Below are positions 33,901-64,000 of a stretch of 64,000 nucleotides of DNA, in pieces. This DNA is from Leucoraja erinacea (lineage: Eukaryota), in the NCBI RefSeq assembly GCF_028641065.1, contig NC_073390.1:13578001-13642000 (forward strand), given 5' to 3'. Position numbers and translations under genes: made by a program. Within the stretch, counting starts at the first letter, position 1, and every line of letters begins with the position of its first letter. The notes beneath the pieces were generated by a model that worked only from the letters and a program-made list of their open reading frames with translations, did no database searches and was not told the DNA's origin.

Positions 33901-36900
33901 ATTGCAGATTATTTTCTTATACTAGAAAAAAGATTAGCGCGAATGTCATATTTTAAGAAAATTTCTTTAAACGTATAACAAAGAACACGGTCAAATATAT
34001 CAAGGTCAAATATCCATTCTGATCCAACTTCCCCGATAAGAACAATTTAATCCTATATTTATACAAACACCTTCAAAAAAGAATAATTAGCTATTAATTT
34101 AAAAATCTTACTTTTATTATATTGCTGGTGAACATGTGATCTTGTTGTAACATTATTGCAGTTAGTTTAGAAACAAAGAAAATAGGTGCAGTAGGCCTTT
34201 CGGCCTTTCAATATGATAATGTCTGATGATCCAAAATCATTACCCCGTTCCTGCTTTCTCCCCATATCCCTTGATTATGTTAGCCCCAAGAGCTATATCC
34301 AACTCTCTTGAAAAGATTCAGTGAATTGATCTCCACTGCCTTCTAGGGCAGAGAATTCCACAGATTTACAACCCTCTGGATGAAAATGTTTTTCCTCATC
34401 TCAGTCCTAAATGGCCTACCTCTTATTCTTAAACAGTGACACAAAAAGCTGGAGTAACTCAGCGGGACAGGCAGCATCTCTGGAGAGACGGAATGGATGA
34501 CATTTCGGGTCAAGACCCTTCTTCAGACATGAAACTGTGACCCCTGGTTCAGGACACCCCTAACATCGAGAATATTTTTCCTGCATCTAACCCATCCAAT
34601 CCCTCAAAGAATTTTATAAGTTTCTGTAAGATCTCCTCATCCATCTCAATTCCAGTGAATATGCCCAGTCGATCCATTCTTTCATCATATGTCAGTTCCG
34701 CAATCCCGGGAATTAACCTGGTGAACCTACGCTGCACTCGCTCAATAGCAAGAATGTTCTTCCTCAAATTAGGAGACCAAAACTGCACACAATACTCCAT
34801 GTGCGGTCTCAATGGCCCAGTACAACTGCAGTAGGACCTCCTTACTCCTATACTCAAATCTTCTCGCTGTGACTGGCAACATGCCATTTGCTTTCTTCAT
34901 TGCCTGCTGTACATGCATGTTTACTTTCAGTGGCTGATGTACAATGACACCCAGGTCTCGTTGCACCACCCCTTTTCCTAATCTGACACCATTCAGGTAA
35001 TAATCTGCCTTCTTGTTCTTGCCACCAAAGTGGATAACCTCACATTTATCCACATTATACTGCATCTGCCATACATCTGCCCACTCACCCAACCTATCCA
35101 AGTCATTCTGCAGCTTCATTGCATCCGCCTCGCAGCTCACACAGCTACCCAGCTTTGTGACATCCACAAACTTGGAGATGTTACATTTAATTCCTTTGTC
35201 TAAATCGTTAATATATATTGTAAATAACTGGGGTCCTAGCATCGAGCCTTACGGCACTAGTCACTGCCTGCCATTCTGAAAAGGCCCCGTTGATTCCTAC
35301 TCTTTGCTTCCTGTCTGCCAACCAGTTTTCTATCCATGTTAATACCCTACCCCCAATAGCATGCGCTCAAATTCTGCACGTTAATCTCTTGTGGGACCCT
35401 GTCAAACACTTTTTGAAAGTCCAGATACACCACATCCACTGGCTCTCCCTTATCAATTCTACTTATTACATTTTCAAAAAATTCCAGAAGATTAGTCACG
35501 CATGATCATAAATCCATGCTGACTTTGACTGATCCTGTCACAGCTTTCCAAATTTAGTTTTTAGTTTAGTGATACAGCACGGAAACAGGCCCTTCGGCCC
35601 ACCGAGTCCGCGCCAACCAGAGATCCCAGCACATTAACACTATCTTACACACACTAGGGACAATTTACACATACACCATGAGGGGTTTGTTTTTCACACA
35701 AAGGGTGGTAGGTGTATGGAACAAGCTGCCAGAGGAGGTAGTTGAGGCGGGGACTATCGCAACATTTAAGAAACAGTTAGACAGGTACAGTGGCTCGCAA
35801 AAGTTTTCATACCCCTTGAACTTTTCCACATTTTGTCACATTACAACCACAAATGTAAATGTATTTTATTGGGATTTTATGTGATAGACCAACACAAAGT
35901 GGTGCATAATTGTGAAGTGGAAGGAAAATGATACATGGTTTTCAAATTTTTTTACAAATAAAAAACTGAAATGTGTGGCGTGCAAAAGTATTCAGCCCCC
36001 CTGAGTCAATACTTTGTAGAACCACCTTTCGCTGCAATTACAGCTGCAAGTCTTTTGGGGTATGTCTCTACCAGCTTTGCACATCTAGAGACTGAAATTT
36101 TTGCCCATTCTTCTTTGCAAAATAGCTCAAGCTCAGTCAGATTGGATGGAGAGCGTCTGTGAACAGCAATTTTCAAGTTGCCAGAGATTCTCAATTGGAT
36201 TCAGGTCTGGACTTTGACTGGGCCATTCTAGCACATGAATATGCTTTGATCTAAACCATTCCATTGTAGCTCTGGCTGTATGTTTAGGGTCGTTGTCCTG
36301 CTGGAAGGTGAACCTCCGCCCCAGTCTCAAGTCTTTTGCAGACTCTAACAGGTTTTCTTCCAAGATTGCCCTGTATTTGGCTCCATCCATCTTCCCATCA
36401 ACTCTGATCAGCTTCCCTGTCCCAGCTGAAGAAAAGCATCCCCACAGCATGATGCTGCCACCACCATGTTTCACAGTGGGGATGGTGTGTTCAGGGTGAT
36501 GTGCAGTGTTAGTTTTCCGCCACACATAGCGTTTTGCATTTAGGCCAAAAATTTCAATTTTGGTCTCATCTGACCAGAGCACCTTCCTCCACATGTTTGC
36601 TGTGTCCCCCACATGGCTTGTGGCAAACTGCAAACGGGACTTCTTATGGCTTTTTTTCAACAATGGCTTTCTTCTTGCCACTCTTCCATAAAGGCCCGAT
36701 TTGTGGAGTGCACGACTAATAGTTGTCCTGTGGACAGATTCTCCCACCTGAGCTGTGGATCTCTGCAGCTCCTCCAGAGTTACCATGGGCCTCTTGGCTG
36801 CTTCTCTGATCAATGCTCTCCTTGCCCGACCTGTCAGTTTAGGTGGGCGGCCATGTCTTGGTAGGTTTACAGTTGTGCCATACTCTTTCCATTTTCGGAT

Positions 36901-39900
36901 GATGGATTGAACAGTGCTCCATGAGATGTTCAAAGCTTGGGAGATTTTTTTAAAACTTAACCCTGCTTTAAACTTCTCCACAACTTTATCCCTGACCTGT
37001 CCGGTGTGTGCCTTGGGCTTCATGATGCTGTTTGTTCACTAATGTTCTCTAACAAACCTCTGAGGCCTTCACAGAACAGCTGTATTTATACTGAGATTAG
37101 ATTACACACAAGTGGACTCTATTTACTAATTAGGTGACTTCTGAAGGCAATTGGTTGCACTGGATTTTATTTAGGGGTATCAGAGTAAAGGGGGCTGAAT
37201 ACTTTTGCACGCCACACTTTTCAGTTTTTTATTTGTAAAAAAATTTGAAAACCATGTATCATTTTCCTTCCACTTCACAATTATGCGCCACTTTGTGTTG
37301 GTCTATCACATAAAATCCCAATAAAATACATTTACGTTTGTGGTTGTAACGTGACAAAATGTGGAAAAGTTCAAGGGGTATGAAAACTTTTGCAAGCCAC
37401 TGTATATGGATAGGACAGGTTCGGAGGGATATGGATCAAACGTGGGCAGGTGGGACTAGTGCAGATGGGACATGCAGGGTCGAAGGGCCTGTTTCCACAC
37501 TGTATCACTCTATGGCTCTATCTATTTTTCCCTCTCAAACACATTCTCCTGCCTTCTCCCCATTAACTCTGACACCCGTATCAATCAAGAATCTATCAAT
37601 CACCTCCTGAAAAATGTCCATTGACTTGACCTCCACAGCTGTCTGTGGCAATGAATTCCACAGTTCACCACCCTCTGACAAGAAATTCCTGCTCATCTCC
37701 TTCCTAAATTATTTTAATTCAGAGGCTGTGGCCACTGGTCCTAGACTCTCCCACTAGTGGAAACATCCTCTCCACATCCACTCCATCCAGGTTTTTACCA
37801 GGCTAGGACAGACGGCAACAGCTTCACACCGTGTCCCAAAGCTTGTGTCCTGTCCTGCATCACCTAAGGCGGCAGAGACATTATAGGAGAGGGCAAGCAC
37901 CGTAACAAAGTAGCTCACGATGGTTTGGGTAACATTCAGAAATGTCTATGCATGTCACATCATGAATATTACTGAAGAACGGTCTTGACCCGAAATATAA
38001 TTTCCAGAGATGCTGCCTGACTCACTGAGTTACTCCAGCATTCTGTGACATGTCATCTATCCATGTTCTCCAGAGATGCTGTCTGACCCACTGAGTTACT
38101 CCAGCACTCTGTGAAATGTCGCCTATTCATATTCTCCGCAGATGCTGCCTGACCCACTTAGTTACTCCAGCACTGTGTCTATTTTCCCTTCACCCATCTG
38201 CCCAAGCCCACTCTCCCCCCTCCTTTCCTATGTTCCTTTCCACCCATAAACCTCTCTCTGCCTTTACATTTCACTCCTCTTTCAAATCTGCTCTACTTAT
38301 CTACATTCATTTTTCTTCTTAACTTTTTTGTCATAGAATGATGCAGTGTGGAAACAGGCCCTTCAGCCCAACTTGCCCACACCAACCAACATGTCCCATG
38401 TAAACTAGTCCCACTTACACGTGTTGGCCCATATCCATCTAAATCTGTCCTATCCATGTACGTGTCCAAATGTCTCTTAAGCATTAGGATAATCCCAGCC
38501 TTACCTACCTCCTTTGGCAGCTCGTTCCATACACCCAGCACCCATTGTGTGAAAAAGCTACCTCTCAGATTGCTGTTAATTTCTGAAATATTGGTCATAA
38601 AATTTGGTGCAAAAAAGCTCCAAAATAAGGCTCAGAATGCATTAGAGAGCATCTAAAACCTTAAGCGGGCCCTGGACCCTGGCATCGAGGGACTTCATGC
38701 TTCGCGCTCATGTTGTGCTCAACGCACACGCTATTTCACATTACATTTTTTGTAATCCTGTCATGCCACCCCTCTTTTTGGAAAGCTTCGCCCGGGCTTG
38801 AATGGAATAATGTTTAGTGCAAGATAAATTCCAGTAAAGATCAGTGTGTCTCCAATGAGGTAGATAGTAGTTCAAGACTCTCGGTAGTTGTTGAAAGGAT
38901 GGTTGTAAATCTAAAATGCATGTTATTCATGGTATAAAGTATGCTATATGTGGGGATTGCATTAAACTAGATAGAATCCAAAGTGAATCTGTAGAGAGAA
39001 ACAAATTGTTTCATGTTCATGTCATTTCATCAAAACTGGGAAAGGTCAGAGATAAAACATGTTTTAAGATGCAAAACGAGGCAGAGCTGCTTCAATTTTT
39101 TGCTCTGTAATTTCATGTACTCCCGCAAATCACCCGTTCACAATTCCTCAGAACAAATCTGTCATCTTTATCATCCTATTTCACTTAGCATTTTCATCCT
39201 TTTGTATCATTTAATCACACTTGCCTACACAAAGCTCTTGGTCTCCTCTCCTCCCTGTCGCTGAATCTCAAAACTTGTTCTATCTCTAACTTTTTCCAGT
39301 TATAATGAAATATCCGCAACTCAATATATTAATTGCGTGTCGCTGCCTGGCCGTTGATTTTTTTAGTCTTTGTAATACAGCGTGGAAACCGGTCCTTCGG
39401 TGCACTAGTTCCATGTTATCCCACTTTTGCATCCTATACACGAGGGCCAATTTGCAGAAGCATGTCGTTGGAATGTGTAAGGAAACCAGAGCACCCGGAG
39501 AAAACCCAGTCACAGGGAGAACATACAAGCTCCTCAGAGACAGCACCCATAGTCAGGATCAAACACTGATTCTGCTGCTGCGCCACTGCCCTGCTGAGTA
39601 TTTCCAGCATTTTACGTTTTGATCTCAACAATGCACAGAAGGTACAGAATGTACAGAAGGTTGAGAGTGCACACCACCAGACTCATGGAAACCTGAAGCT
39701 GTTCTAAGGCTAGGGTATTGTCTTATTTACATGTCTTCCATTGGACTTTGTCTGATGTGCTACAATGTTGAGAACTATATTCTACGCTCCGTATCATCCC
39801 CTTTGCTCTATCTATAGTATTCAAGTTTGAGTTTTTTGTATGGTATAACTGACCTGTCTGGATGGAATGCAAACAAAGCATTTCACTGTACCTTGGTATA

Positions 39901-42900
39901 CGTGACAATAATAAACCTAAACTTACCCAAAGAGTTCTCTTGCTGCAGCCAATATTGTAGAGGTTTTCCCTGTCCCAGGGGGTCCGTAAAAAAGCAGGTT
40001 GGGAAGCTGCAAAATAATTTTCAATTAATTTTTTTTTGTGACTAGCCACCATTGCGTTAGATTGGCCTTTTACATAGATAAATATCTGTATTCAGTCCAG
40101 GCCTGTGCCACATATGATGCCAAGTTGAATTAACGTCCTCTGCCTGCATGTGATCCATATCCTACCCCTGTATATACACGTGTTTATCTAAAAAAAGTCT
40201 TAAGCATCACTATTGTATTTGCTTGCATCATCACCTCCGGCAGCCACCGATCTCTGCGTAAAAAGCATGCCCTGCACATCTCCTTCAGATCACTGCAATT
40301 TTTGACTTAATTTACTTAAAGGTATTTAAGTACTGAATTTTGTTTCTTTTAAATGTTCTTGGTTCTTGGTTTCTTGGTCCTCCAAAATATTCCAAATGGA
40401 ATTTAAACTGGAGGTGGTGGAGGGAGGAGTGGAGGGAGAAGCCAGAAAGGGTTATTGGGAAGAAAGAGCTACTTTAAATTTAGTTGCATCTGGTTGGGTA
40501 ACTATAGTAGGGTGGAGATTATTCCATGCTTTAATTGTGCGGGGGAAGAACAAATTGCTGTACACATCTGTCTTTGTAGCTGGGATCACAAATTGGATCG
40601 AATGCCCTCGTCTGCTCCTAATTGGTTTGGGTTTGGTGTAGGTCTTGTAATCTATGTCAAGCTGACCATTTAACATTTTGTAAAAACAGGTCAAACGGTG
40701 AAACGTCTGTCTTGGAGAGGGTTCCACCCCAGAGAATTGAGAAGTTTGGTGACACTCGCTTCTCTCATAGGTGTTAGTAACAAATCGAGCTGCCTGTCTT
40801 TGGACACGTTCGATGGAAGAAATGTTTTTATTTGTGTATGGGTCCCATGCTGCAACTGCGTAGTCCAAATGAGGTCTAACGAGGGTGAAGTATAGCTTCT
40901 CCTTGACAGAAGTTGAACAATGATGAAAGTTGCGCCTCAGAAAGTTTAGGACACCTGTTGCTTTCACCGTTGCATGATGAGTCTGACCATTCCAACGCAG
41001 ATCATTCTGCAATTTGTTGCCAAGATACTTGGTTTGTTTGGATTCTTCAAGGGTGGCACCAAGTATATTGTAAGATGTTTCACGTGGATTCCTCTTTTTG
41101 GTGACACGCATGGTTTCACATTTGGAAGGGTTGAACTGCATGCCCCATTGTTGTGACCACTCAACCATAGTATCGAGATCCTTTTGGAGAGTTGATGGAT
41201 TTGACTATATGTTTAAATATTCAATATTTTATTTAGCCCCCTCACAACATTCAAACTGTTTGATAGTTTAGATAGCGGGTAGGGGGTCCATCCTTGGCAG
41301 TCGGAGGATTTTCAATGGAAAGACTTGCTCAAATCCTGTCACATAATGCTAATTATGACTCAAACCCCCTGGAACCCCCAATGACCAACCCAATGCAAGC
41401 TAAAGATCAACATAGGGCAAATGCAGATCCAGTGCTTTGCAAAAAAACAAAAGGCCATTTTTAGCATTCTATCTTGAAACGTTCATAAATTTGAGGAGAT
41501 AACACACGAGTGATACTGGCATATCACTTGATATTCCTATCTGCCAACTGGAAGATGCTGAAATACAAATGAATAGTACTCGGTAGCTTTAACCGTCACT
41601 TACGTCAGCTCCTTCAATGGTCTTCTTTAGTACAGCCACAACTTCTTCCTGAAACGCAATTTCAGCCACACACTTTGGTCGACTGTATGCCAAAGATAAG
41701 ACTTACTTTAGTGAGAGATTGTAGTCTGAACACATATACATTGCAACCCACCCTCCACCCCACCTGACAAAAAACATGTGGATGCTGAAAATCCAAAACA
41801 AAAACAAAATGCTACAAACACTTGTGTCAGAAGGAACTGCAGATGCTTGTTTACACCGTAGATAGGCACAAAATGCTGGAGTAACTCAGCAGGACAGGCA
41901 GCATCTCTGGAGGGAAGAAATGGGTGACATTTCGGGACGAGACCCTTCTTCAGACTGGTATTATCTTTGCTGGAAACACTTAGCAAATCAGATGCCTTGT
42001 CCTATTGCCTCTTCCCTCAATCATCCAGGGACCCAAACATTCTTTCACTTTGAATTTTTCCCCCAATCTAGTGACTGGATTGTGTGTTCACCTCTGAATC
42101 AGATAAATCAGACACAGGTAGGGTGATGGCTTTGTGCAACACCTTCATTCAGTCAATGAGTGATCCCGAGCTTCCTGCAGCCTGTCATTTTAACCATCTA
42201 CCCCACTCCCACTCTGACCAGTCCAGGACTTCCTGCACTGTTGCTACACAAGCTTGTGGAGCAACACCTCATCTAACGTCTTTGCAACCTTACAAGCTCA
42301 ATCTTGACTTCCACAACTACAGGCAGCTCCTTTCTTTGTCAGTAACAGAACTGGGAGAGTTTCAGAATAAAAGGACATTCTAAAGGTATGTCCTTTCCAA
42401 AGGAGGCGAGGAGGAATTTCTTTAGTCAGAGGGTGGTGAATCTGGAATTCATTGCCACAGAAGGCTGTGGAGGCCAAGCCAATGGATATATTTAGGTGGA
42501 GATTGACAGATTCTTAATTAGAAAGGGTGTCAGTGGTTATTGGAAGAACGCAGGAGAAAGGGAAAGATAGATCAGCAATGATTGAATGGCAGAGAAGACT
42601 TGATGAGCCGAATGGCCTCATTTTGCTCCTTGAACTTGTGAAATGGCCACCCGCTTCATTCATTCAACTGGTGTCTCCAGACTTGTTTAATTCTAAAACA
42701 TCCTATCCTCTTTCCCATCTCTGAGATTTTAACTGATTCTCTTTCCACAAAGCCTGTTCAACTGCCAAGCTGATCCTGTATGCTCTGTTTTGTTTAATCT
42801 ATAAACTGTAGCTGTCTTGACACAATGAAAATTAAATCAGTAGGCCAGCAGTCAGGAATTTGCAAATATCAAAAGGCTGTTGTGTGCCCAGCCTTTATTT

Positions 42901-45646
42901 CATACTCGTTAAGTCTGTAGAGGCTTTCTTGTTGCACGTTATTGAGTTTTGTAATGCTGCCTGCAGAAATTAGCAACATTTAAATCCCTTACATGGAAGG
43001 GTAGGAGTGGGTACAGAAAGAAAGAAGTTTTGGAGTTATTGTGGGGAGTTAATAATTGGAAAGCCAACATTTATTTTTAAAGTGTCGCAATTCCTTATTT
43101 GTTTTTCCAGTCACTGGCTTCAGATAAGATTTCAATATTATGATTTTCAGAATATATCATTTTGACGTGGATTAGCCCTCAAGGAATTTTCCTCATACAG
43201 CGTGACAACACTCCTATTTACACAGCTATAAACATTTTTACTGTAAATCAATGGTAAATATTACAAAACAATACCTATATTCCTGGTCTTCCACAAAGCA
43301 AGTTCTTAGCAAGCCCTTCAGCCCATCAAGTCCACACTGACCATCAATCACCCATTAACACTAGTCCTATGTTATCCCACTTTCTCATCTATTCCCTACT
43401 CATTAGGAGCATCTCTTATTTCGCTTGGGCAACTTACTACCCAGCGGTATGAGTATTGATTTCCCTCATTTCAAGTAAACCTTCCATTCCCTCTTTCTCT
43501 CTCCATGCCTAATGTAGAATGTAGAAAACTAGAAATTCATTAAGAATTCTGCCTGGAAAGCTTCCACAACTTGTTGAATGTTGTCGCTAACTTTCCCTCC
43601 AGACAATGAAAAGTTAGCATTAGACACTCATCACCCTTGTGCTTGACCTACAGTGGCTACCAATCGATTAATGATACAACTTTATAATTTGCACCTTACT
43701 TTCAAATCACATCACAATGTATTTAAGAGAGAGTTAGATATAGATCTTAGGGCTAACAGAATCAAGGGACATGGGGAGAAAGCAGGAATGGGGTACTGAT
43801 TTTGGTTGATCACCCATGATCATAGTGAATAGCAGTGCTGGCTCGAATGACCCAAAGGCCTACTCCTGCACATATTTTCTATGTTTTCTTACCCCTCGCA
43901 GAGTCACAAAGCAGAAACAGGACTTTGGTTCACCATGTCCATGTCAACAATTGTACTGATTACTACTAAAACCTATTTACCTGTGTCTGTCCATAGCCAC
44001 CTATGCCGTGGCGATTCAGTGCTCATCCAAGAGAATATCAAGAGAACTGGCACCCGCTACCTCCTTGCGCATTCTTTCTGTAATTTTCTCTATCTCTAGG
44101 ATGTCTGTGGTGCTTAATTCCAACCTCTTCCTCATCTCCTGTCTCGACTACTCCAACTCTAGAAATCAAACAACCCACTCCACCCACCAAACCTACAACT
44201 TTGACCATCCTTTTAATCATCAGTGCTAATATTTCACTCATAGCACTCCGATGAAACACATTGGGATGTTCCTGCTACATATCATACACCGTGGAATCAA
44301 CATCAAGGGCTCGCAGTCTCGGGAGAGGCTCGTCGGGAGCTCCAACGTCACGGAGGGTTCAACCAGCCCCGACACGAGGTTTGATCGCCTGGCGGAGCTG
44401 ATATCCCCCCCCCAATGCAGGAGCTTGATCGCCTCGACATGGAGGGCCAGAACGCCGCCGGCTACGGGAGTCAAGATAGTCCAAGGAATAACTAAGGGAG
44501 GACTTGAACTTTATTTTGCCTTCCATCACAGTGAGGAATGTGTTGGAGTCACTGTGGTGGATGTTCATGTTAAAATGTGTTTTTGAAGCGATCTGTTACT
44601 TTTAATTATATGACTGACCTGGCCAATGAAATTCCTCGTATGTTGCAAAACATACTTGGCGAATAAAGTGTGATTCTGATAAAGTCTGACGATAGATACA
44701 AAATGGTTGAGTAACTCAGCGGGTCATGCAATATCTCTAGAGAAAAGGAATAGGCGTCGTTTTGGGTTGAAACATAGAAAATAGGTGCAGGGGTAGGCCA
44801 TTCGGCCTTTCGAGCCTGCACCCATTCAATATGATCAAACCCTTCGTCAGACCCCTCAAACCATAAAGTCAGAAGTAAGCTCCTGACCCAAAACACCTGC
44901 CTTAGTTTAGTTGAGAAATACATCATGGACACGGGCCCTTTGGCCCAGGCCGACAATCGATCACCTGTTAACTGTTCAACCTGAAACGTCACCCATTCCT
45001 GATCTCCAGAGATGCTGCCTGTCCAGCTGAGTTACTCCAGCTATTTGTGCTTATCTTCGGTTTAAACCAGCATCTGCAGTTCCTTCTTACACACTAGTTC
45101 TATTATCCCATTTCTGCATCCACTCCTTACACACTAGGGGTAACTTCCAGCGACCAATTAAACTACAAATCCTCACATCTCTGGGATGTGTGAGGAAACC
45201 AGAGCACCTGGAGGAAACTCACGAGGTCAAAGAGAGAACGCACAAACTCCACACAGACAGCACTCAAGGACAGGATCAATCTGGGGTCTCTGCTGTAAGG
45301 CAGCAGCTGCGCCACTATGCTGCCTATCAGTGTCCTCCAGAGATGCTGCCTGACCCACTGACTTATTCCAGAAATGTATGTTCTAAGCCAGATTTCAGCA
45401 TTTGCAGTTCCTTGTGTCTGGGTCATCATAAAGTCTTTACTTTTATTATGATGTACAATTGTGAGGGAAGGAACACTCATTGCTACGTGCAGACTACTTA
45501 AAACAGCATCTGGAATCAGTTTCTTACTATTTTTCCACCCAGGGAATAGGTTTTTGCTTCTTGTTCTCGCCACTAGTTCCTGGTGCGGTTTTTTCTCTTG
45601 TTGCTTTCGTGCCGATAGCACCAGCTCCTTTTAGAAAGGCTTGCAT
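24952..45646 (-). CDS. RFC4: Replication factor C subunit 4, complete; exons 45646-45528, 41682-41604, 40006-39927, 33715-33596, 30829-30686, 30220-30100, 29710-29585, 27050-26970, 25776-25660, 25047-24952
   Basis: Exons sum to 1083 nt (360 aa + TAA), all GT-AG. Motifs MQAFLKG, PWVEKYRP, Walker [25 protein letters not shown], Walker [14 protein letters not shown] ([11 protein letters not shown]), [10 protein letters not shown]-terminal [15 protein letters not shown]. Confidence 0.96.
28619..29191. mobile_element. hAT (Charlie-like) non-autonomous element inserted in a Penelope fragment
   Basis: Ends CAGGGATCGGC... and ...AGGTTGCCAACCCCTG; degenerate 8-bp TSD AAGTAAAC/ATGTAAGC with central TA. 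Confidence 0.6.
32316..33011. mobile_element. PIF/Harbinger-type MITE
   Basis: TIRs TGGGCCTGTCC(T/C)ACTTAGGC at both ends; TAA/TTA flanks. Confidence 0.75.
32378..32698 (-). mobile_element. tRNA-derived SINE with L2-like tail nested in the Harbinger MITE
   Basis: B-box GGTTCGAATCC on minus strand, conserved-domain motif GTGTCCTTGGGCAAGACAC, tail ...AAAGGCGCTATATAAAT..(ATT)n; 11-bp TSD GTCGCTTGTAT at 32367-32377 and 32699-32709. Confidence 0.85.
34170..35550 (-). mobile_element. CR1 (HER1-like) LINE RT fragment
   Basis: [48 protein letters not shown]; interrupted by a ~90-bp insert at 34441-34531. Confidence 0.88.
35788..37402 (-). mobile_element. Full-length Tc1 DNA transposon (IR/DR-type long TIRs, DD34E) in an RFC4 intron
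   Basis: TA duplication 35786-35787/37403-37404; ~213-bp TIRs starting CAGTGGCT(C/T)GCAAAAG with an inner GCAAAAGTATTCAGCCCCC repeat; transposase on minus strand. Confidence 0.96.
36006..37023 (-). pseudogene. Tc1 transposase with a single frameshift near the C-terminus
   Basis: Paired-like HTH and [35 protein letters not shown] (D to E spacing 34). The C-terminal LKIAVHRR...AKGGSTKY is in another frame after ~36178. Confidence 0.92.
40350..41195 (-). mobile_element. CR1-superfamily LINE 3' fragment (ORF 40452-41168)
   Basis: [61 protein letters not shown]; CAAGAAC-repeat tail. Confidence 0.82.
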
Positions 45647-45949
45647 CTTTCACCTTGAAACAAAGAGAATTAAATGTCTTTCTTTTTTAGAGTAATTCAA
45701 AGACATAAAAGCAACTACACCGAAAATGACGGCTGCCAAATCCATACACGAAAAAAACTGATCTCAATTGTATTTGCCACATTAAAAATAAGATTTAAAT
45801 AAAGATTAATGAACCTTCAGCACTCTTCAAACAAAAGCACGGAATTGCAAAAAAACAAACTACTGAATGAATTCAGCGGGTCAGGCAGCGTGTGTGGAGG
45901 GGAATCAACATTGTTGTTATTTCCTGACCCCATGAACATCTCAGCTCAG

Positions 45950-46240
45950 TGCTCCTCCTCTCCCTCCCTCCCCGCATCTGTGGACCCCAGCAACTACACG
46001 CGGCGCCTCCCCCAGTAACTTCACCTCTGTCCCTTCCACCAAAGATGCTGCAGCTCGCTCTAGGATCTGTCGCTTCCACCAGCAGCACCTGCTCCCGCCA
46101 ACAGCCTCAAGCCGCGGCGAGCACTTCCCTTTCCGTGCGGTGTCCCCGGCAGAGGTGTCCGGGCAGATACAGGGTGTCCGGGCAGACATAGTGAGCTGGA
46201 CGGGGCGACTCCCCTCTCGGTGGTTTTGCCCGCTCTATAA
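45950..46240 (-). promoter_or_regulatory. RFC4 CpG promoter and probable non-coding exon 1
   Basis: CpG-rich; E2F-type TTGGCGGGAG on minus strand 46101-46092; candidate donor GAG|GTGAAG at 46025/46024; acceptor of the first coding exon at 45654-45655. Confidence 0.6.
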
Positions 46241-46299
46241 TCTCTATAATCATCTGGCCACCTTAAGAAGTCACAATGTGTAAGGAGGAACGGCAGAAG

Positions 46300-46327
46300 C
46301 AAAGATCCTATAGCTATAGGATCTTTG
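46300..46327. mobile_element. Second 28-bp palindromic remnant of the same family with 8-bp TSD (7/8 match)
   Basis: GGCAGAAG-[CAAAGATCCTATAGCTATAGGATCTTTG]-GGCAGAAA; perfect palindrome. Confidence 0.75.
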
Positions 46328-46420
46328 GGCAGAAACTCGTTTACACTGAAGATAGACACCAAATGCTGGAGTAACTCAGCGGGTCAGGCAGCATCTCCGG
46401 AGAAAGGGAGAGGTGAGACC

Positions 46421-47293
46421 CTTCAGACTGAGAGTCTGGGGAGAGGGAAACAATAGATATAGACGGCGCTGTAGAGAGAGAGAGAGAGAACAAATAAATG
46501 AAATATATGCAAAGATCGAGTTATAGACGATGAGACCCAACATACGACTTGGGTGGGGTGCACCAGCTGTCAGACACCTCCTCTTACTTATCCTTGGACC
46601 ATGAGCAGATGAGCACCGTGCCACAATCACACAGACCATTTGTGATTTTATCAATTCCAGCTGTCTGCCCTCCACAGCCTCCAACCTTAACGTCCCCACG
46701 CAAGGAGCAAAATTAAGCCTTTTGCCCATTACCAGAATCAAATTTTATTCTTGACAAGAAGTTTGAACTGACAGATTTATGAATCTGACCCACACAAACT
46801 GTTGCCCCGCAACATTGATTACAGTGCGAGTCGGGTCGGGTCAGGTAGGCTCAGGTTGCTAAAATGGGCGTGGAAAAATGCCCATGATCCCCTCCATAGC
46901 GTACTACACGTCAGTCCATTGCATTTAGCAGGAGTAGCCTATCTTGCTTCGCTATAAGATCTTTGCTTCAGACTGAGTCTGGGGAGAGGGAAACAATAGA
47001 TATAGACGGCGCTGTAGAGAGAGAGAGAGAGAGAGAGAACAAATGAATGAAATATATGCAAAAAAACTAACGACGATAAAGGAAACGGGCCATTGTTACT
47101 TGTGTGTTAGGTGAGATCGAGTTATAGACGATGAGACTCAACATACGACTTGGGTGGGGTGCACCAGCTGTCAGACACCTCCTCTTACTTATCCTTGGAC
47201 CATGAGCAGATGAGCACCGTGCCACAATCACACAGACCATTTGTGATTTTATCAATTCCAGCTGTCTGCCCTCCACAGCCTCCAACCTTAACG
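46421..47293 (+). repeat. Local duplication: 46421-46693 and 46966-47293
   Basis: Near-identical copies (duplicate ORFs 46376-46741 and 47067-47345); the second copy has an extra ~50 bp. Confidence 0.9.
46694..46965. mobile_element. Terminal fragment of the same CAAAGATCTTATAGC-ended transposon family
   Basis: Ends in GCTATAAGATCTTTG (46951-46965), identical to the palindrome half-site; sits between two copies of a duplicated segment. Confidence 0.65.
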
Positions 47294-47479
47294 TTGCCCA
47301 GCCCCGGACGCACAGTTTTACCTTCTCCCCAAAATCCATGAACACAACTGCTCTGCCAGACCCATTGTTTCTGCCTGCTCCTGTCCCACTAAATTAATTT
47401 CCACTTACTCGACTCCATCTTATCACCCTTGGTCTAATCTCTCCCAACCTATATCCAAGATACCGCACACTCCATTGAT

Positions 47480-56924: not shown

Positions 56925-59900
56925 TTAATTGTCATAAACCTGATACCATAGCTGTTGATTGTTCTGTTTGTGTTTAGCAAGATGCCACACGAGCTCGCTG
57001 TTGTTTGCAAATCTCAGCATGCACATCTCACATTTGTATGGTAGCGCTGCGGTGTGGCCCAAGTCTATGTGTGTTTGGAGGTTTGACATTTGCTCCGTCG
57101 AGTAATCACAGTACTGACACAAATAGATCTCCTGAGATGTGTGCAAGTTCAAGTGTTTGTCATATTCAGCGGTGTTGCAAAACCCCTTCCCACAATCATC
57201 GCACACGTACGGAAAGAAGCGGGCATGTTCAATCGCCACGTGCCTGTTGACATTGGCATACAGCCGGCTCCTGTAGCCACAGGACTGACATATAAAGAAA
57301 TTACGGTACCGGTCAAAGCTCACTTTGCTCAGAAAACCCGCTGATCCGTGAAGTCCATCTTCGGAGGTATCATTCATCTCCATTAGGCAGTAAGTATGTT
57401 CAGAAAGGACATGGCCGTGCAGCTCAGTGGCATCGTCCGTGCCATACTCACAGAACTGGCAGAGGTATTCCTCATCACCATCATGCTGCTGCAGGTGAAG
57501 GTGGAGGTCACTGGTACTGCTGAAGTGAATGTCGCACTGCTCACACCAGTATAGATACTCACCGATGTGGGCGTCTGCTACATGCAACTCCAGCTCCCTT
57601 GGGTTGTCAGCACTGTGGCTGCAGAGCTGACAAGCACTTGGCTCATCCGCCTCGTGGACCTGCAAGTGCTTATGGAGCAGACTGTATGTTAGGAATTCAC
57701 GCTTACAGACTGGGCAGATGTTAGACAGAGTGTCCGTGTGTCTGAGAATAACGTGTTGTTTCAGCTCCAGCGGGTACTTGCTGTTAAAATCACAATGCTC
57801 ACAGCTGTAGAGTCCATCGCAGGATGGTTTCCGCAGAGGCCACTTGTGTTGGTATAGAATCCCCATGCATGGAGATTTTACTGGTCTTTCAGAACCATCA
57901 CTAACTGAACTTTCTGTTGTATCATCTTGGTGTTTATTGGAGAGAGAAATGTTCTGGTCAGAATGGTAGGTGTTAAATTTTCCATCTTGGTCGTTAAAAA
58001 GGCTCCAGTTTTCAATCCCGCAGTGCCTTTTATTAGTTCCTTTTAAAAATGTATTAATTGGCCTCACTGTCATATAAAGGTCTGAAAAGCAAACAAGATA
58101 TATCATGATGTATTTAAGGCTTTATTTTGATAAATCCACCCATTCCTCCAATTTTTTAGGGAACAAAATTAAAATTTCCCCCATGGTAATTATGGGGAAG
58201 TGAGGCAAAGATAATGTTTTGAAAGTTAACGTGGAAACTGCATGGCATCTAGATGGCATGGGGCAGCACGGTTTCGTAGCGGTAGAGTTGCTGCCTGACA
58301 GCACCGTGGCTTGGTGGGAGAGTTGCTGCCTTGCACCACCAGATACCCGGATTCAATCTTGACCGTGGGTGCTGTCTGTACGGAGTTGGTACGTTCTCTC
58401 CGTGACCTGGTGGGTTTTCTCCGGGAGCTCCGCTTTCATCCCAAATTCCAAAGACACACAGGTTTGTAAGTTAATTTTCTTCAGTAAGATTTGTAAATTG
58501 TTCCTAGCATGTAGGAAAGTGCTAGTGTACGGGGATCGCTGGTCGGTGCGGACTCGGTGGGCTGAAGGGCCTGTTTCCTCGCTGTATCTCTAAACTAAAA
58601 ACTAAACTAAAGCTATATAGCGCGGAAAAAGACTTTTTGGACGAATGCAAGGAAATGTAGGGACAGGTGTTGCATCTCCTGCGGTTACAGAGGCAATGCA
58701 CCTACTGAGTGGGTGGTTAGGGTGGGAAAGGAAGAGTGAATCAAGGAGTTATGGAGGAAATAGTCTCAGTGGAAAGCAGAAAGTGGATGGGAAGATGTGA
58801 CTGGTGGTAGGATCACAGTGAATGTGGTGGAAATGTCAGAAAACTATGTTTTGGATGGGGAGGCTGGTGGGGTGAAAGGTGGGAACCAGTGGAAACTCTA
58901 TCCTTGTTCCATCTGGGGGGGGGAGAGCGAGAGCAGAACTATAGGACACAGAGGAAACATGGGCGAGGGATCCATCTACGTAGCAGGGGGGAAACCGTGT
59001 TTCCTAGAGACAGAAGGCATCTGAGATGTCCTAGAGTGGAGGCCCTCACGTTGGGAGCAGATGCAGTGGAGACAGAGAAATTGAGAGTAAAGGATGGTGT
59101 CCTTGCAAGAGGCAGGGTGGGAGGTGGTGTAGTCCAAATAACTGGGACTCAGGGGGTATATTGTCAATAGTGACTGAGAAAAGGGAGAGTGGTGTCAGAC
59201 ATTTTTCTGTCTCCATCACAGGGGATAGATTATCGATTGACGTCTACAATAAACGCACTGACTTCCCATTCCCATAATGGTCTTTCTGTCCTGAGACTCC
59301 CCACTTGCAGGGTAAGGCCAGATACAAACTGGAGGAACAGCACCTCATATTCCACTTGAGTAGCTGACAACCCAATGGTAAGAACATAGAATTCTTCAAT
59401 TTTAGGTAATTAATTAACCAGGATATAATCCCAACCTCTTTCCAGTGCCCCAACTGGTGCACATTGATGTCTTCCACAATCTTGTCTCCATTTACCCTTC
59501 CCCCTCTATCCCTTCCTCAGGCTTTACATTTCAACCCCTCTTCTCTCCTTATTTCACACCCTTTTGTCTTTCCATCTCTGTCATTTGTTAAATTATTTGT
59601 CAATCAACCCCCCCCCCCACACACACACACACACACACCTGTATCCACCTATCACTTGCCTGGCTTTGTCCTGTCCACCTCGTTTCCAATTTCCTCCCTT
59701 TTACTACAATCAGTCAGAAGAAGGGTCTATTCATGTCCTCTAGAGGTTCTGCCCAACATGCTGAGTTACTCCATCATTTCGGGTCTTTTTTTGTAAACCA
59801 GCATCTGCAGGCCCTTGTGTCTACTTGATACTTTTGTACCTTGGCAGTAATTGGAAAGCCCACTCCACCACCATTATCTAGATTCACACAGTCACTCAAC

Positions 59901-62900: not shown

Positions 62901-63592
62901 CCCACAATGGCTCACACCATGAGGAAAGGCACAAAGTCCAGTCCCCAACCCCAGTTCGCCCATAGTCGGGCCTATTGAGGCCTCCACAGTTGCCTCTACG
63001 GAGGCCCGATCACTCTATAACTCTAGGGTCACATAGTTTATGTTGGCTGATTTATAGATTCCACAATTCCAGCCATATTAGAGATGACAAACTGTCCTTC
63101 TGCGCATCAGTAACATGGGATATTTTACAAAATGTTTAAGAAGGAACTGCAGATGCTGGAAAATCAAAGGTAGACAAAAATGCTGGAGAAACTCAGCGGG
63201 TGAGGCAGCATCTATGGAACGAAGGAAATGGGCAACGTTTCATGTCGAAACCGTTCTTCAGACCAGCAGATGCTCGTTGGGTCCCTGTCACCTCCACCTC
63301 CCCCCTTCCCTCCCGGCCTCAGCCCATAGTAGGGTCCTTATTTTATTTTTTAAACCCTTCCCTCAGCAGTCCCTCACACACCCTTCCTTCCACGCACCCC
63401 CACCCACGCCCTTCCCTCGGGGGCCCTTCACCCCGCTTCTCTCCCCCACCGCACCCATCCTGCTGCTCTGCTCTCCCCCCCCCCACCCCCGGGCTAGTGT
63501 TGCCCCCTCCAGTATGCCCTCCTGCCAGCGATACCTGAATACCGCGAGGGGTTTAAGCTCTTCCTCCTCTTCCTTTTGCCACGGTCGCTCAT
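56925..63592 (-). CDS. ZNF639: C2H2 zinc finger protein 639; exons 63592-63535, 60268-60197, 58081-56925 (an additional internal exon may have been missed)
   Basis: 58-nt first exon MSDRGKRKRRKSLNPSRYS resembles ZNF639 (KKRKRKTLHPSRYS). The large last exon has eight C2H2 fingers including LYWCEQCDIHFSSTSDLHLH and FICQSCGYRSRLYANVNRHVAIEH. Phase-1 junctions are compatible; the middle exon is less certain. Confidence 0.9.
58260..58610 (+). mobile_element. HE1-like tRNA SINE (representative; related copies at ~6005-6324, 13230-13477, 28085-28260, 31180-31350, 39370-39590, 45090-45320, 48580-48877, 61645-61910)
   Basis: A-box-like GGTTTCGTAGCGGTAGAGTTGCTGCC, B-box-like GGATTCAATC, conserved body CGTGACC..GGGTTTTCTCCGGG, CR1-type tail GGGCTGAAGGGCCTGTTTCC..(CTAAA)n. 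Confidence 0.75.
58640..59820. mobile_element. Penelope-like element fragments in inverted arrangement
   Basis: Minus-strand YLDYTTSHPASCKDTILYSQFLCLHCICS (RT thumb region) to ~59250, then plus-strand KLEEQHLIFHL 3' end and pLTR repeat. Confidence 0.65.
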
Positions 63593-63900
63593 CTTGTGGC
63601 CGGAGCCCGGGCCCGGTTCCGGTTCCAAATCCAGGCCCGGACCTGCTCCGCTCCTCACACCGACCGCTGCCGCCTCGAAACCCGGCCCGGTCTCCGCCCC
63701 AGCAAAACGGGCAGGCAAGGCAAGGCAAGGCCAGGCCCCGAGCCGCGACCTGTTGGCCTAATGGAAGCGGGCGGATGGACGGCGCTCTCTCTCCCCGCTC
63801 GGCCAAGGCCCCGAGCCGCTGCTCCCCAATCGCTTCGCTTCAACTCGCTCGAAAATGGAGACGGTCCCTAACGCGGTGACGTCAGCTCCGCTCCCGCTCG
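63400..63900 (-). promoter_or_regulatory. ZNF639 CpG island/promoter with palindromic CRE
   Basis: Very GC/CpG-rich around exon 1; TGACGTCA 63877-63884; CCAAT near 63826. Confidence 0.65.
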
Positions 63901-64000
63901 GCTTTTAACTGTCTACTAAGGGAGCGTCTGTATTTTACAATTCAGCTCTAAAAGGTGTGTTGGCAGGGACATCTCTTGTTTGTGTATCTGCATTCGCCAT

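What the first reader, a model, noticed from the sequence alone, without database searches (positions are those of the whole stretch)
46292..46335. Second, independent footprint of the same family at the RFC4 promoter
A perfect 28-bp palindrome CAAAGATCCTATAGCTATAGGATCTTTG with a different 8-bp TSD (GGCAGAAG/GGCAGAAA) lies about 200 bp upstream of the RFC4 E2F site. It has the same length and central GC junction as the EIF4A2 copy but a different target, and the T>C variant is symmetric in both arms. This implies a separate insertion of a subfamily repaired to the identical product. Both promoters whose upstream flank is fully visible in the window carry one, which suggests strong promoter targeting; co-option as binding or cruciform sites is conceivable but untested.
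Basis: partly seen in the sequence, partly recalled or inferred. Interest (0 to 1): 0.75.

Follow-up and report, generated by a model that had tools for sequence, protein, structure and literature searches.

The report
P-like transposon scars at promoters
The 28-base palindrome is most likely the scar left when a cut-and-paste jumping gene, probably a relative of the fruit-fly P element, left its landing site next to the RFC4 gene, which the same family hit three times; this suggests that P-like elements target promoters in a vertebrate as they do in flies.

Summary
In detail: a perfect 28-bp palindrome with 7/8 direct flanks, 199 bp from the RFC4 E2F-type site. It consists of two 15-nt ends of a multi-copy DNA transposon joined at a shared GC, the form of published fly P-element donor-site repair junctions. 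All four window pieces lie within 1 kb of two start regions. Laid contigs show the 28-mer in a second organism and variants of 30, 31 and 33 bp, so there is no single fixed product. A metagenome scan gave 14 remnants with the same 14-bp terminus in another animal, 33-51 bp long, none 28; two lie 127-159 bp upstream of start codons; 26 of 28 arms carry the C, so C is probably not a derived variant. No transposase was found, so P membership is inferred. Nothing supports co-option. The open novelty is a cut depth that may differ between families (about 17 versus 25 nt).

The parts
46292..46299 (.). left copy of the 8-bp target-site duplication
   Evidence: best direct-repeat length 8, 7 of 8
46300..46327 (.). 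28-bp remnant: 15 nt of each transposon end overlapping by a 2-nt GC; C at terminal position 9 in both arms
   Evidence: contigs of runs X1 and X17 run from unique flank into it
46328..46335 (.). right copy of the TSD, one mismatch
46032..46079 (.). older decayed remnant of the same family: 32 bp (46040-46071, arms 15+17, C type) with 7/8 direct flanks, between the E2F-type site and the inferred first splice donor of RFC4, so probably in the 5' UTR
   Evidence: 0 such arm-pair-plus-TSD structures in 150 Markov controls; UTR position inferred from splice signals, no RNA data
46694..46965 (-). 272-bp single end of the parent element, terminus at 46965, T type; the other end is absent
   Evidence: summed contig depth 7,500-40,000 times unique depth in 4 of 4 runs, a sign of a repeat family, not a copy number
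46966..46973 (.). 8-bp target site of the parent end; the same 8 bases stand at 46421-46428, the start of the duplicated segment
46421..46693 (+). copy of the flank 46966-47294 lying on the other side of the parent end (99% over 181 nt, with indels elsewhere); read as a gap-repair product
   Evidence: mechanism inferred
12491..12534 (.). EIF4A2-promoter remnant: 28 bp (12499-12526, T type, one arm mismatch) with 8/8 TSD, 290 bp upstream of the TATA-like box at 12816-12821
46092..46101 (-). E2F-type motif of the RFC4 promoter (label recalled)
45533..45653 (-). RFC4 first coding exon, ATG at 45646-45644
   Evidence: E 1.5e-05 to RFC4 residues 1-42

Best explanation
The palindrome is an excision footprint of a non-autonomous cut-and-paste DNA transposon moved by a P-superfamily (THAP9-like) transposase. 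Steps: (1) the element inserted near an open promoter and made an 8-bp TSD (shown: TSD and position); (2) the transposase cut one strand at the element edge and the other about 15-20 nt inside each end, so the donor kept two 3' overhangs made of terminal sequence (inferred from the remnants and the fly mechanism); (3) end joining annealed the overhangs at the self-complementary GC at positions 14-15, giving 15+15-2 = 28 bp between intact TSDs, while other registers gave 30, 31, 32 or 33 bp (products shown, pathway inferred); (4) the scar cannot move again and decays neutrally. The RFC4 promoter was a hotspot: three insertions with three different TSDs within 930 bp.
For: Arms follow the parent end held in the window for 15 nt each. 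Fly P donor sites keep 17-nt overhangs and are repaired to TSD + 14 + (2-nt microhomology) + 14 + TSD junctions, 3 and 9 isolates in Tables 1 and 2 of PMC5466332 (passages), the same form as here. Length variants in laid contigs all decompose into parent-end arms: 16+16-2, 16+15 with CpG decay, 20+15-2 or 18+15; the window's third copy is 15+17. 8-bp TSD in 3 of 3 window remnants and 8-9 bp in 6 of 14 outside loci; P elements make 7-9-bp TSDs (PMC3698922 passages) and favour promoters and origins (PMC7776569 passage). Four of four window pieces lie within 1 kb of two start regions that cover 6.3% of the window (0.004 if counted as two clusters). hAT footprints lose the element and carry flank palindromes instead (PMC5873905 passages).
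Against: No transposase or complete element was found, so the superfamily is not shown; hAT elements also have 8-bp TSDs and CAG/TAG-like ends (recalled). The 33-bp class needs an arm of 18-20 nt or a recurrent untemplated A, more than the fly 17-nt cut. Outside remnants have arms up to 24-26 nt and lengths spread over 33-51 bp; the lack of lengths 52-58 among 11 independent loci is not significant (p 0.06). 8 of 14 outside loci (5 independent) have no 8-bp TSD. No empty or element-filled allele of this locus was seen, and the test could not have shown one. The SLC19-type gene has no nearby piece.
Confidence: 0.72

Rival explanations
1. The remnant is the short tail of internal deletions or aborted gap repair of a hAT-type (or other 8-bp-TSD) MITE: both ends were re-synthesised or kept by chance and joined at the GC microhomology, with no staggered cut involved.
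Against: 3 of 3 two-ended window pieces are 28-32 bp with none of intermediate size; arms stop at the same landmark in repeated events (15-17 nt here; 24+24-2, 24+25, 25+24 in family a); 5 of 11 independent outside loci fall in 48-51 bp (p 0.008, bin chosen after seeing the data).
Confidence: 0.15
2. The 28-mer is itself a mobile micro-element that arose once or twice and was copied to new sites as a unit.
For: Two 28-mers with different TSDs in 64 kb; the form without indel carries most of the depth laid on the palindrome centre, listed length variants being about 3-23% by run; contigs break at its last bases, as expected if the exact C-type 28-mer occurs at many loci (inference).
Against: T-type and C-type 28-mers and a graded series 30-33 all decompose into parent ends; the laying is biased to the 28-bp reference; a unit this short has no room for internal transposase sites and could not survive two overlapping 15-17-nt staggered cuts (inference from PMC7776569); none of 14 outside remnants is 28 bp.
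Confidence: 0.06
3. Whatever its origin, the palindrome has been kept at these promoters because it now acts as a binding site or cruciform (enrichment by retention, not by targeting).
For: Present at the same place in two organism labels; folds into a hairpin of -13.3 kcal/mol, z -3.7; promoter-proximal in another animal too.
Against: The EIF4A2 copy has a symmetry-breaking change and the 32-bp copy differs from the parent end at 7 of 32 positions; flanks of the two organisms differ by only 13 substitutions in 876 bases, too few to reveal constraint on 28 bp; a parent end sits at the same promoter, which points to targeting.
Confidence: 0.07

Closest known systems
Drosophila P-element donor-site repair junctions (P{wa} assay; PMC5466332 Tables 1-2, passages read; PMC7776569 section 6 and passages read)
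   Same: Intact 8-bp TSDs around two terminal stubs joined at a 1-3-nt microhomology near the overhang tips or bluntly; promoter preference of insertion.
   Different: Different terminal sequence; natural, inherited scars in a vertebrate instead of induced events; arms of 18-20 nt here and 24-26 nt in the outside families exceed the 17-nt fly cut; transposase not identified.
Zebrafish Pdre2 / THAP9 elements (PMC10983969, passages and Discussion read)
   Same: Vertebrate P-like element with short (13-bp) CA-starting TIRs, 8-bp TSD and internally deleted copies.
   Different: Other TIR sequence; about 50 copies reported there against a family with very high contig depth here; zfTHAP9 excised but gave no detectable integration in those assays, whereas this family shows repeated insertion and exit at promoters.
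BuT5, a P-dependent MITE of the Drosophila repleta group (PMC3698922, passages read)
   Same: Non-coding element moved by a P transposase, TSD of 8 or 9 bp (one outside locus here has 9).
   Different: BuT5 has 3-bp TIRs and about 1 kb length; the word footprint does not occur in that paper's main text.
Ac/Ds (hAT) excision footprints (PMC5873905, passages read)
   Same: 8-bp TSD class (recalled); palindromic sequence at the repaired site; microhomology use.
   Different: hAT palindromes are copies of flanking DNA from hairpin opening and the TSD is damaged; here the palindrome is element sequence and both TSDs are whole.

Membership tests
P superfamily (P, 1360, Galileo, THAP9-like) | TSD of 7-9 bp (8 for fly P) | tested here: met
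   8 bp in 3 of 3 window remnants; 8-9 bp in 6 of 14 outside loci, no clear TSD in the other 8
P superfamily (P, 1360, Galileo, THAP9-like) | Terminal inverted repeats starting CA | tested here: met
   fly and zebrafish termini as printed also start CA; not exclusive to P
P superfamily (P, 1360, Galileo, THAP9-like) | Transposase with THAP domain, RNase H fold and GTP-binding insertion | not testable with these tools
   no genome held; no complete element in viral, prokaryote or phage collections; the 14 metagenome loci hold remnants only
P superfamily (P, 1360, Galileo, THAP9-like) | Long staggered donor cleavage that leaves terminal stubs at the donor site (17 nt in the fly) | tested here: inconclusive
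   stubs of 15-17 nt fit in the 28, 30, 31 and 32-bp forms; the 33-bp form and the outside families need longer arms; cleavage itself not observed
P superfamily (P, 1360, Galileo, THAP9-like) | Insertion preference for promoters and origins | tested here: inconclusive
   4 of 4 window pieces near two start regions; outside loci: promoter-type motifs near 5 of 11 versus 5 of 42 background windows, p 0.023, motifs recalled and chosen after viewing; CpG density p 0.004, CpG o/e p 0.057; no genome-wide test
P superfamily (P, 1360, Galileo, THAP9-like) | Subterminal inverted repeats and internal transposase sites | not testable with these tools
   only one parent end is held
hAT superfamily | 8-bp TSD | tested here: met
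hAT superfamily | Excision through flank hairpins: footprint without element sequence, TSD trimmed or inverted | tested here: not met
   both TSDs whole and 15-17 nt of each element end kept against PMC5873905; does not exclude a hAT internal deletion
hAT superfamily | hAT transposase in an autonomous partner | not testable with these tools
   no autonomous copy found
MITE (the 28-mer as a mobile unit) | Uniform length across copies | tested here: inconclusive
   28 dominates what aligned to a 28-bp reference, but 27, 30, 31, 32 and 33 occur
MITE (the parent element) | High copy number, TIR, TSD, no coding sequence | tested here: inconclusive
   very high summed depth over the 272-bp end in 4 of 4 runs; full length and coding content unknown

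The most novel reading that the evidence does not exclude
A clade of P-like transposons with one 14-bp terminus is shared by a vertebrate and an unrelated invertebrate, targets housekeeping promoters in both, and places its inner nick by a sequence landmark, not by a fixed 17-nt ruler: arms end at the same AGC/AGCG motif whether it lies 15-16 nt (this family) or 24-25 nt (outside family a) from the end. The hundreds of inherited scars would then be an in vivo map of vertebrate P-type integration sites and of cut depth, some of them inside 5' UTRs or first exons.
Probability: 0.3. Interest if true: 0.8.

Novelty: new member of a known kind. Interest (0 to 1): 0.52.

Why it matters
The 17-nt staggered cut and the promoter/origin bias of P elements are known from the fly, and the zebrafish THAP9 study read here found excision but no integration. 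Inherited scars in a vertebrate genome record both steps in vivo: their positions test promoter targeting genome-wide, their arm lengths give the cut depth, and their centres give germline end-joining preferences. The comparison of families with the same terminus but different arm lengths makes the ruler-versus-landmark question directly testable. For this one locus the matter is modest: a neutral scar in a promoter that was hit three times.

Tried and rejected
Search for a complete element or transposase: viral contigs gave 0 matches for the two-ended pattern and 0 for the 23-base end, and 2 and 3 single-ended matches for shorter patterns that have no partner end and sit in unrelated sequence, read as chance. 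Prokaryote genomes gave 1 match, a 47-bp hairpin in a Neobacillus record, read as a chance terminator-like hairpin. Phage records gave no match to the parent end. The metagenome records are not held as searchable genomes, which leaves their full-length elements unseen. Rfam found only SNORD2 and SNORA81: the palindrome is no known RNA. The Atlas gave no usable hit for the L013 exon; one search identified it instead. Pfam named 5 of 71 frames given from 10 of the 14 loci. Polymorphism: no empty-site row, but single-copy depth was under or near the 5% listing cut at the palindrome in all 4 runs and rows were withheld, so this is no test; the listed X14 records do not cover the site. Depth hint not used as evidence: run X3 peaks over RFC4 exon 1 and its parent-to-SINE depth ratio is about 5 times that of X1 while a neighbouring repeat is 6 times lower; this would fit an open-chromatin library, but the library is not on record and contig depth cannot rank parts. 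Other window palindromes (9234-9257, 42239-42266, 11446-11529) lack 8-bp direct flanks and the terminus and were set aside. Literature: the 14-letter termini occur in 2 papers, both on unrelated bacterial or gut topics by their listings; searches listed no paper on this family or on natural P-type footprints in a vertebrate (listings only). Repbase and Dfam could not be searched and may hold the parent.

Full report
Observation. The window shows a perfect palindrome at 46300-46327 between 8-bp direct repeats that match at 7 of 8. With up to 3 mismatches the 28-mer occurs twice in the window and never in 100 shuffles. A generic scan for short inverted repeats inside 8-bp direct repeats returns just these two, against 0-1 in 8 Markov controls. 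The neighbouring genes are RFC4 on the minus strand, ATG at 45646, and eIF4A-II with SNORD2 and SNORA81 on the plus strand. The host is a vertebrate; a cartilaginous fish is likely from recalled SINE/LINE tails, which I did not test.

More of the family in the window. At 46040-46071 lies a decayed 32-bp remnant with 7/8 direct flanks; arm pairs with such flanks occur 3 times in the window and 0 times in 150 Markov controls. It sits between the E2F-type motif (46092-46101, label recalled) and a predicted splice donor at 46024, so probably in the RFC4 5' UTR (inferred, no RNA data). At 46694-46965 lies one 272-bp end of a longer parent element; the flank that follows it, starting with the 8-bp target site, is repeated at 46421-46693. 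Thus three insertions with three different target sites lie within 930 bp at RFC4, and one lies 290 bp upstream of the EIF4A2 TATA-like box. Regions within 1 kb of these two starts are 6.3% of the window; counted as two independent clusters the chance is 0.004. Against this, an SLC19-type gene has its start-codon exon at 4982-5194 and no piece within 7 kb, its transcription start unlocated.

Anatomy. Measured against the parent end, the 28-mer is 15 nt of each end overlapping by the 2-nt GC, and the 32-mer is 15+17. Contigs of 4 of the 24 listed runs were laid on 45450-46990. The parent end carries 7,500-40,000 times unique depth and the palindrome centre 37-436 times; these sums are not copy numbers but show a repeat family and many other remnants. 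X1 matches the window almost exactly and may be its source. X17, another organism label, has a contig from 45450 to 46325 with 13 substitutions and 9 gap letters, so it holds the 32-mer and 26 of the 28 bases, past the centre: the scar is shared. Listed centre variants add 2, 3 or 5 bases or drop 1 and make up about 3% (X1), 12% (X3), 23% (X14) and 15% (X17) of depth there; three rows were not shown, counting was incomplete in three runs, and the reference favours 28. The variants decompose as 16+16-2, 16+15 with CpG decay, and 20+15-2 or 18+15. An empty allele could not have been listed, because other loci swamp the 5% cut.

Relatives elsewhere. One scan of metagenome contigs for both termini up to 30 bases apart gave 14 loci from 2 assemblies. 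They are animal DNA with introns and LINE pieces and share nothing with the window at E below 1e-3. Lengths are 33-51 bp, none 28; four are one amplified locus, leaving 11 independent. Six have an 8-bp TSD (9 in L010; 7/8 in L012); the other eight have none, which I cannot explain. In family a the longest arms end at the same AGC/AGCG motif that ends the window arms, but 24-25 nt from the terminus: 24+24-2, 24+25 and 25+24. Five of 11 fall in 48-51 bp (p 0.008, bin chosen afterwards); the absence of 52-58 is not significant (p 0.06). C stands at position 9 in 26 of 28 arms, and in both arms of the window's older 32-mer, so C is more likely the old state. L013 lies 159 bp upstream of the start codon of a 520-aa FAD-binding protein, matched at its N-terminus (the name DHCR24 is recalled). 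L004 lies 127 bp upstream of a candidate ATG-only first exon of a DCN1-like gene. L008 lies upstream of an SLC37A2-like gene (start inferred). Promoter-type motifs occur near 5 of 11 loci against 5 of 42 background windows (p 0.023, motifs recalled and picked after viewing), CpG density is higher (p 0.004, 14 non-independent loci) and CpG o/e only marginally (p 0.057).

Mechanism. Fly P transposase cuts with a 17-nt stagger, makes 8-bp TSDs and favours promoters and origins (PMC7776569, passages and section 6 read). Its donor sites are repaired to TSD, terminal stub, short microhomology, terminal stub, TSD; the 14+2+14 junction appears 3 and 9 times in the two tables of PMC5466332, with preference for microhomologies near the overhang tips (passages). 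The 28-mer is the same construction with GC. hAT excision instead leaves flank palindromes and no element sequence (PMC5873905, passages). P-family TSDs of 7, 8 and 9 bp are described in PMC3698922 (passages). I therefore read the palindrome as a P-type excision scar (0.72). Shown: termini, TSDs, arm lengths, sharing between organisms, local clustering. Inferred: the staggered cut, the repair pathway, the transposase. Results against: the 33-bp class and the outside arms exceed 17 nt, eight outside loci lack a TSD, and no autonomous element was found in any collection. An internal-deletion or aborted-repair product of a hAT-type MITE stays open (0.15); a self-mobile 28-mer (0.06) and retention for function (0.07) have little support. 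The strand can form a hairpin, but two of three remnants have lost symmetry.

Known and new. It works like a P donor-site scar; membership of the P superfamily is untested at its defining feature, the transposase. The zebrafish THAP9 preprint (PMC10983969, passages and Discussion read) reports about 50 P-like copies, excision, and no detectable integration, so natural vertebrate scars add in vivo evidence. Searches listed no paper on this family or on natural P-type footprints in a vertebrate; I saw listings only, no supplements, and repeat libraries such as Repbase or Dfam may hold the parent. Other notes describe different scar types at promoters.

Verdict. Real, and a new member of a known kind: interest 0.52. 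The most novel reading not excluded is that P-like families with one shared terminus in a vertebrate and an invertebrate target promoters and set their inner nick by a sequence landmark at 15-17 or about 25 nt (probability 0.3, interest 0.8). A genome-wide census of arm lengths and the partner transposase would settle both.

Noticed in passing
window 46421-47294: A roughly 270-330-bp flank is duplicated on both sides of the truncated parent end, and the duplication starts exactly at the 8-bp target site; fits repair that copied the empty homologue from one broken end and the filled sister from the other, or an assembly join.
   Followed up: partly
window 11446-11529: An 84-bp near-perfect palindrome (40-nt arms, 4-nt loop) inserted in a LINE-like tail about 1 kb upstream of the EIF4A2 remnant; unrelated terminus, no 8-bp direct flanks; perhaps a remnant of another DNA transposon.
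   Followed up: no
L011:724-769: The 46-bp remnant plus its 8-bp TSD adds 54 bp in frame between a candidate ATG and a splice donor in a promoter-like, CpG-rich contig: a possible 18-residue insertion in a first exon.
   Followed up: partly
L001, L002, L007, L014, L004, L006, L009, L013: Outside family b keeps the terminus almost exactly but has no 8-bp TSD; best direct flanks are 7 (5/7), 13 (11/13), 14 (8/14) and 16 (11/16) bases. L001/2/7/14 are one locus amplified inside a larger repeat.
   Followed up: partly
window 46307-46308: A contig of run X3 ends at 46307, one base before the C/T position of the left arm; either an allele at that site or a coverage end at the hairpin.
   Followed up: no
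window 46063 and 46087: Run X3 shows small insertions (4 and 8 bases) in and next to the decayed 32-bp copy, and shares several substitutions with organism C although labelled organism A.
   Followed up: no
window 36133-37035: A 300-aa Tc1/Sleeping Beauty-type transposase frame on the minus strand, unrelated to the finding.
   Followed up: no
window 9234-9257 and 42239-42266: Two further spacer-less palindromes of 24 and 28 bp with other termini and no direct flanks.
   Followed up: no
window 56925-58121 and 63500-64000: A C2H2 zinc-finger gene on the minus strand whose CpG-island promoter lies at the window edge, so its upstream flank cannot be checked for a remnant.
   Followed up: partly
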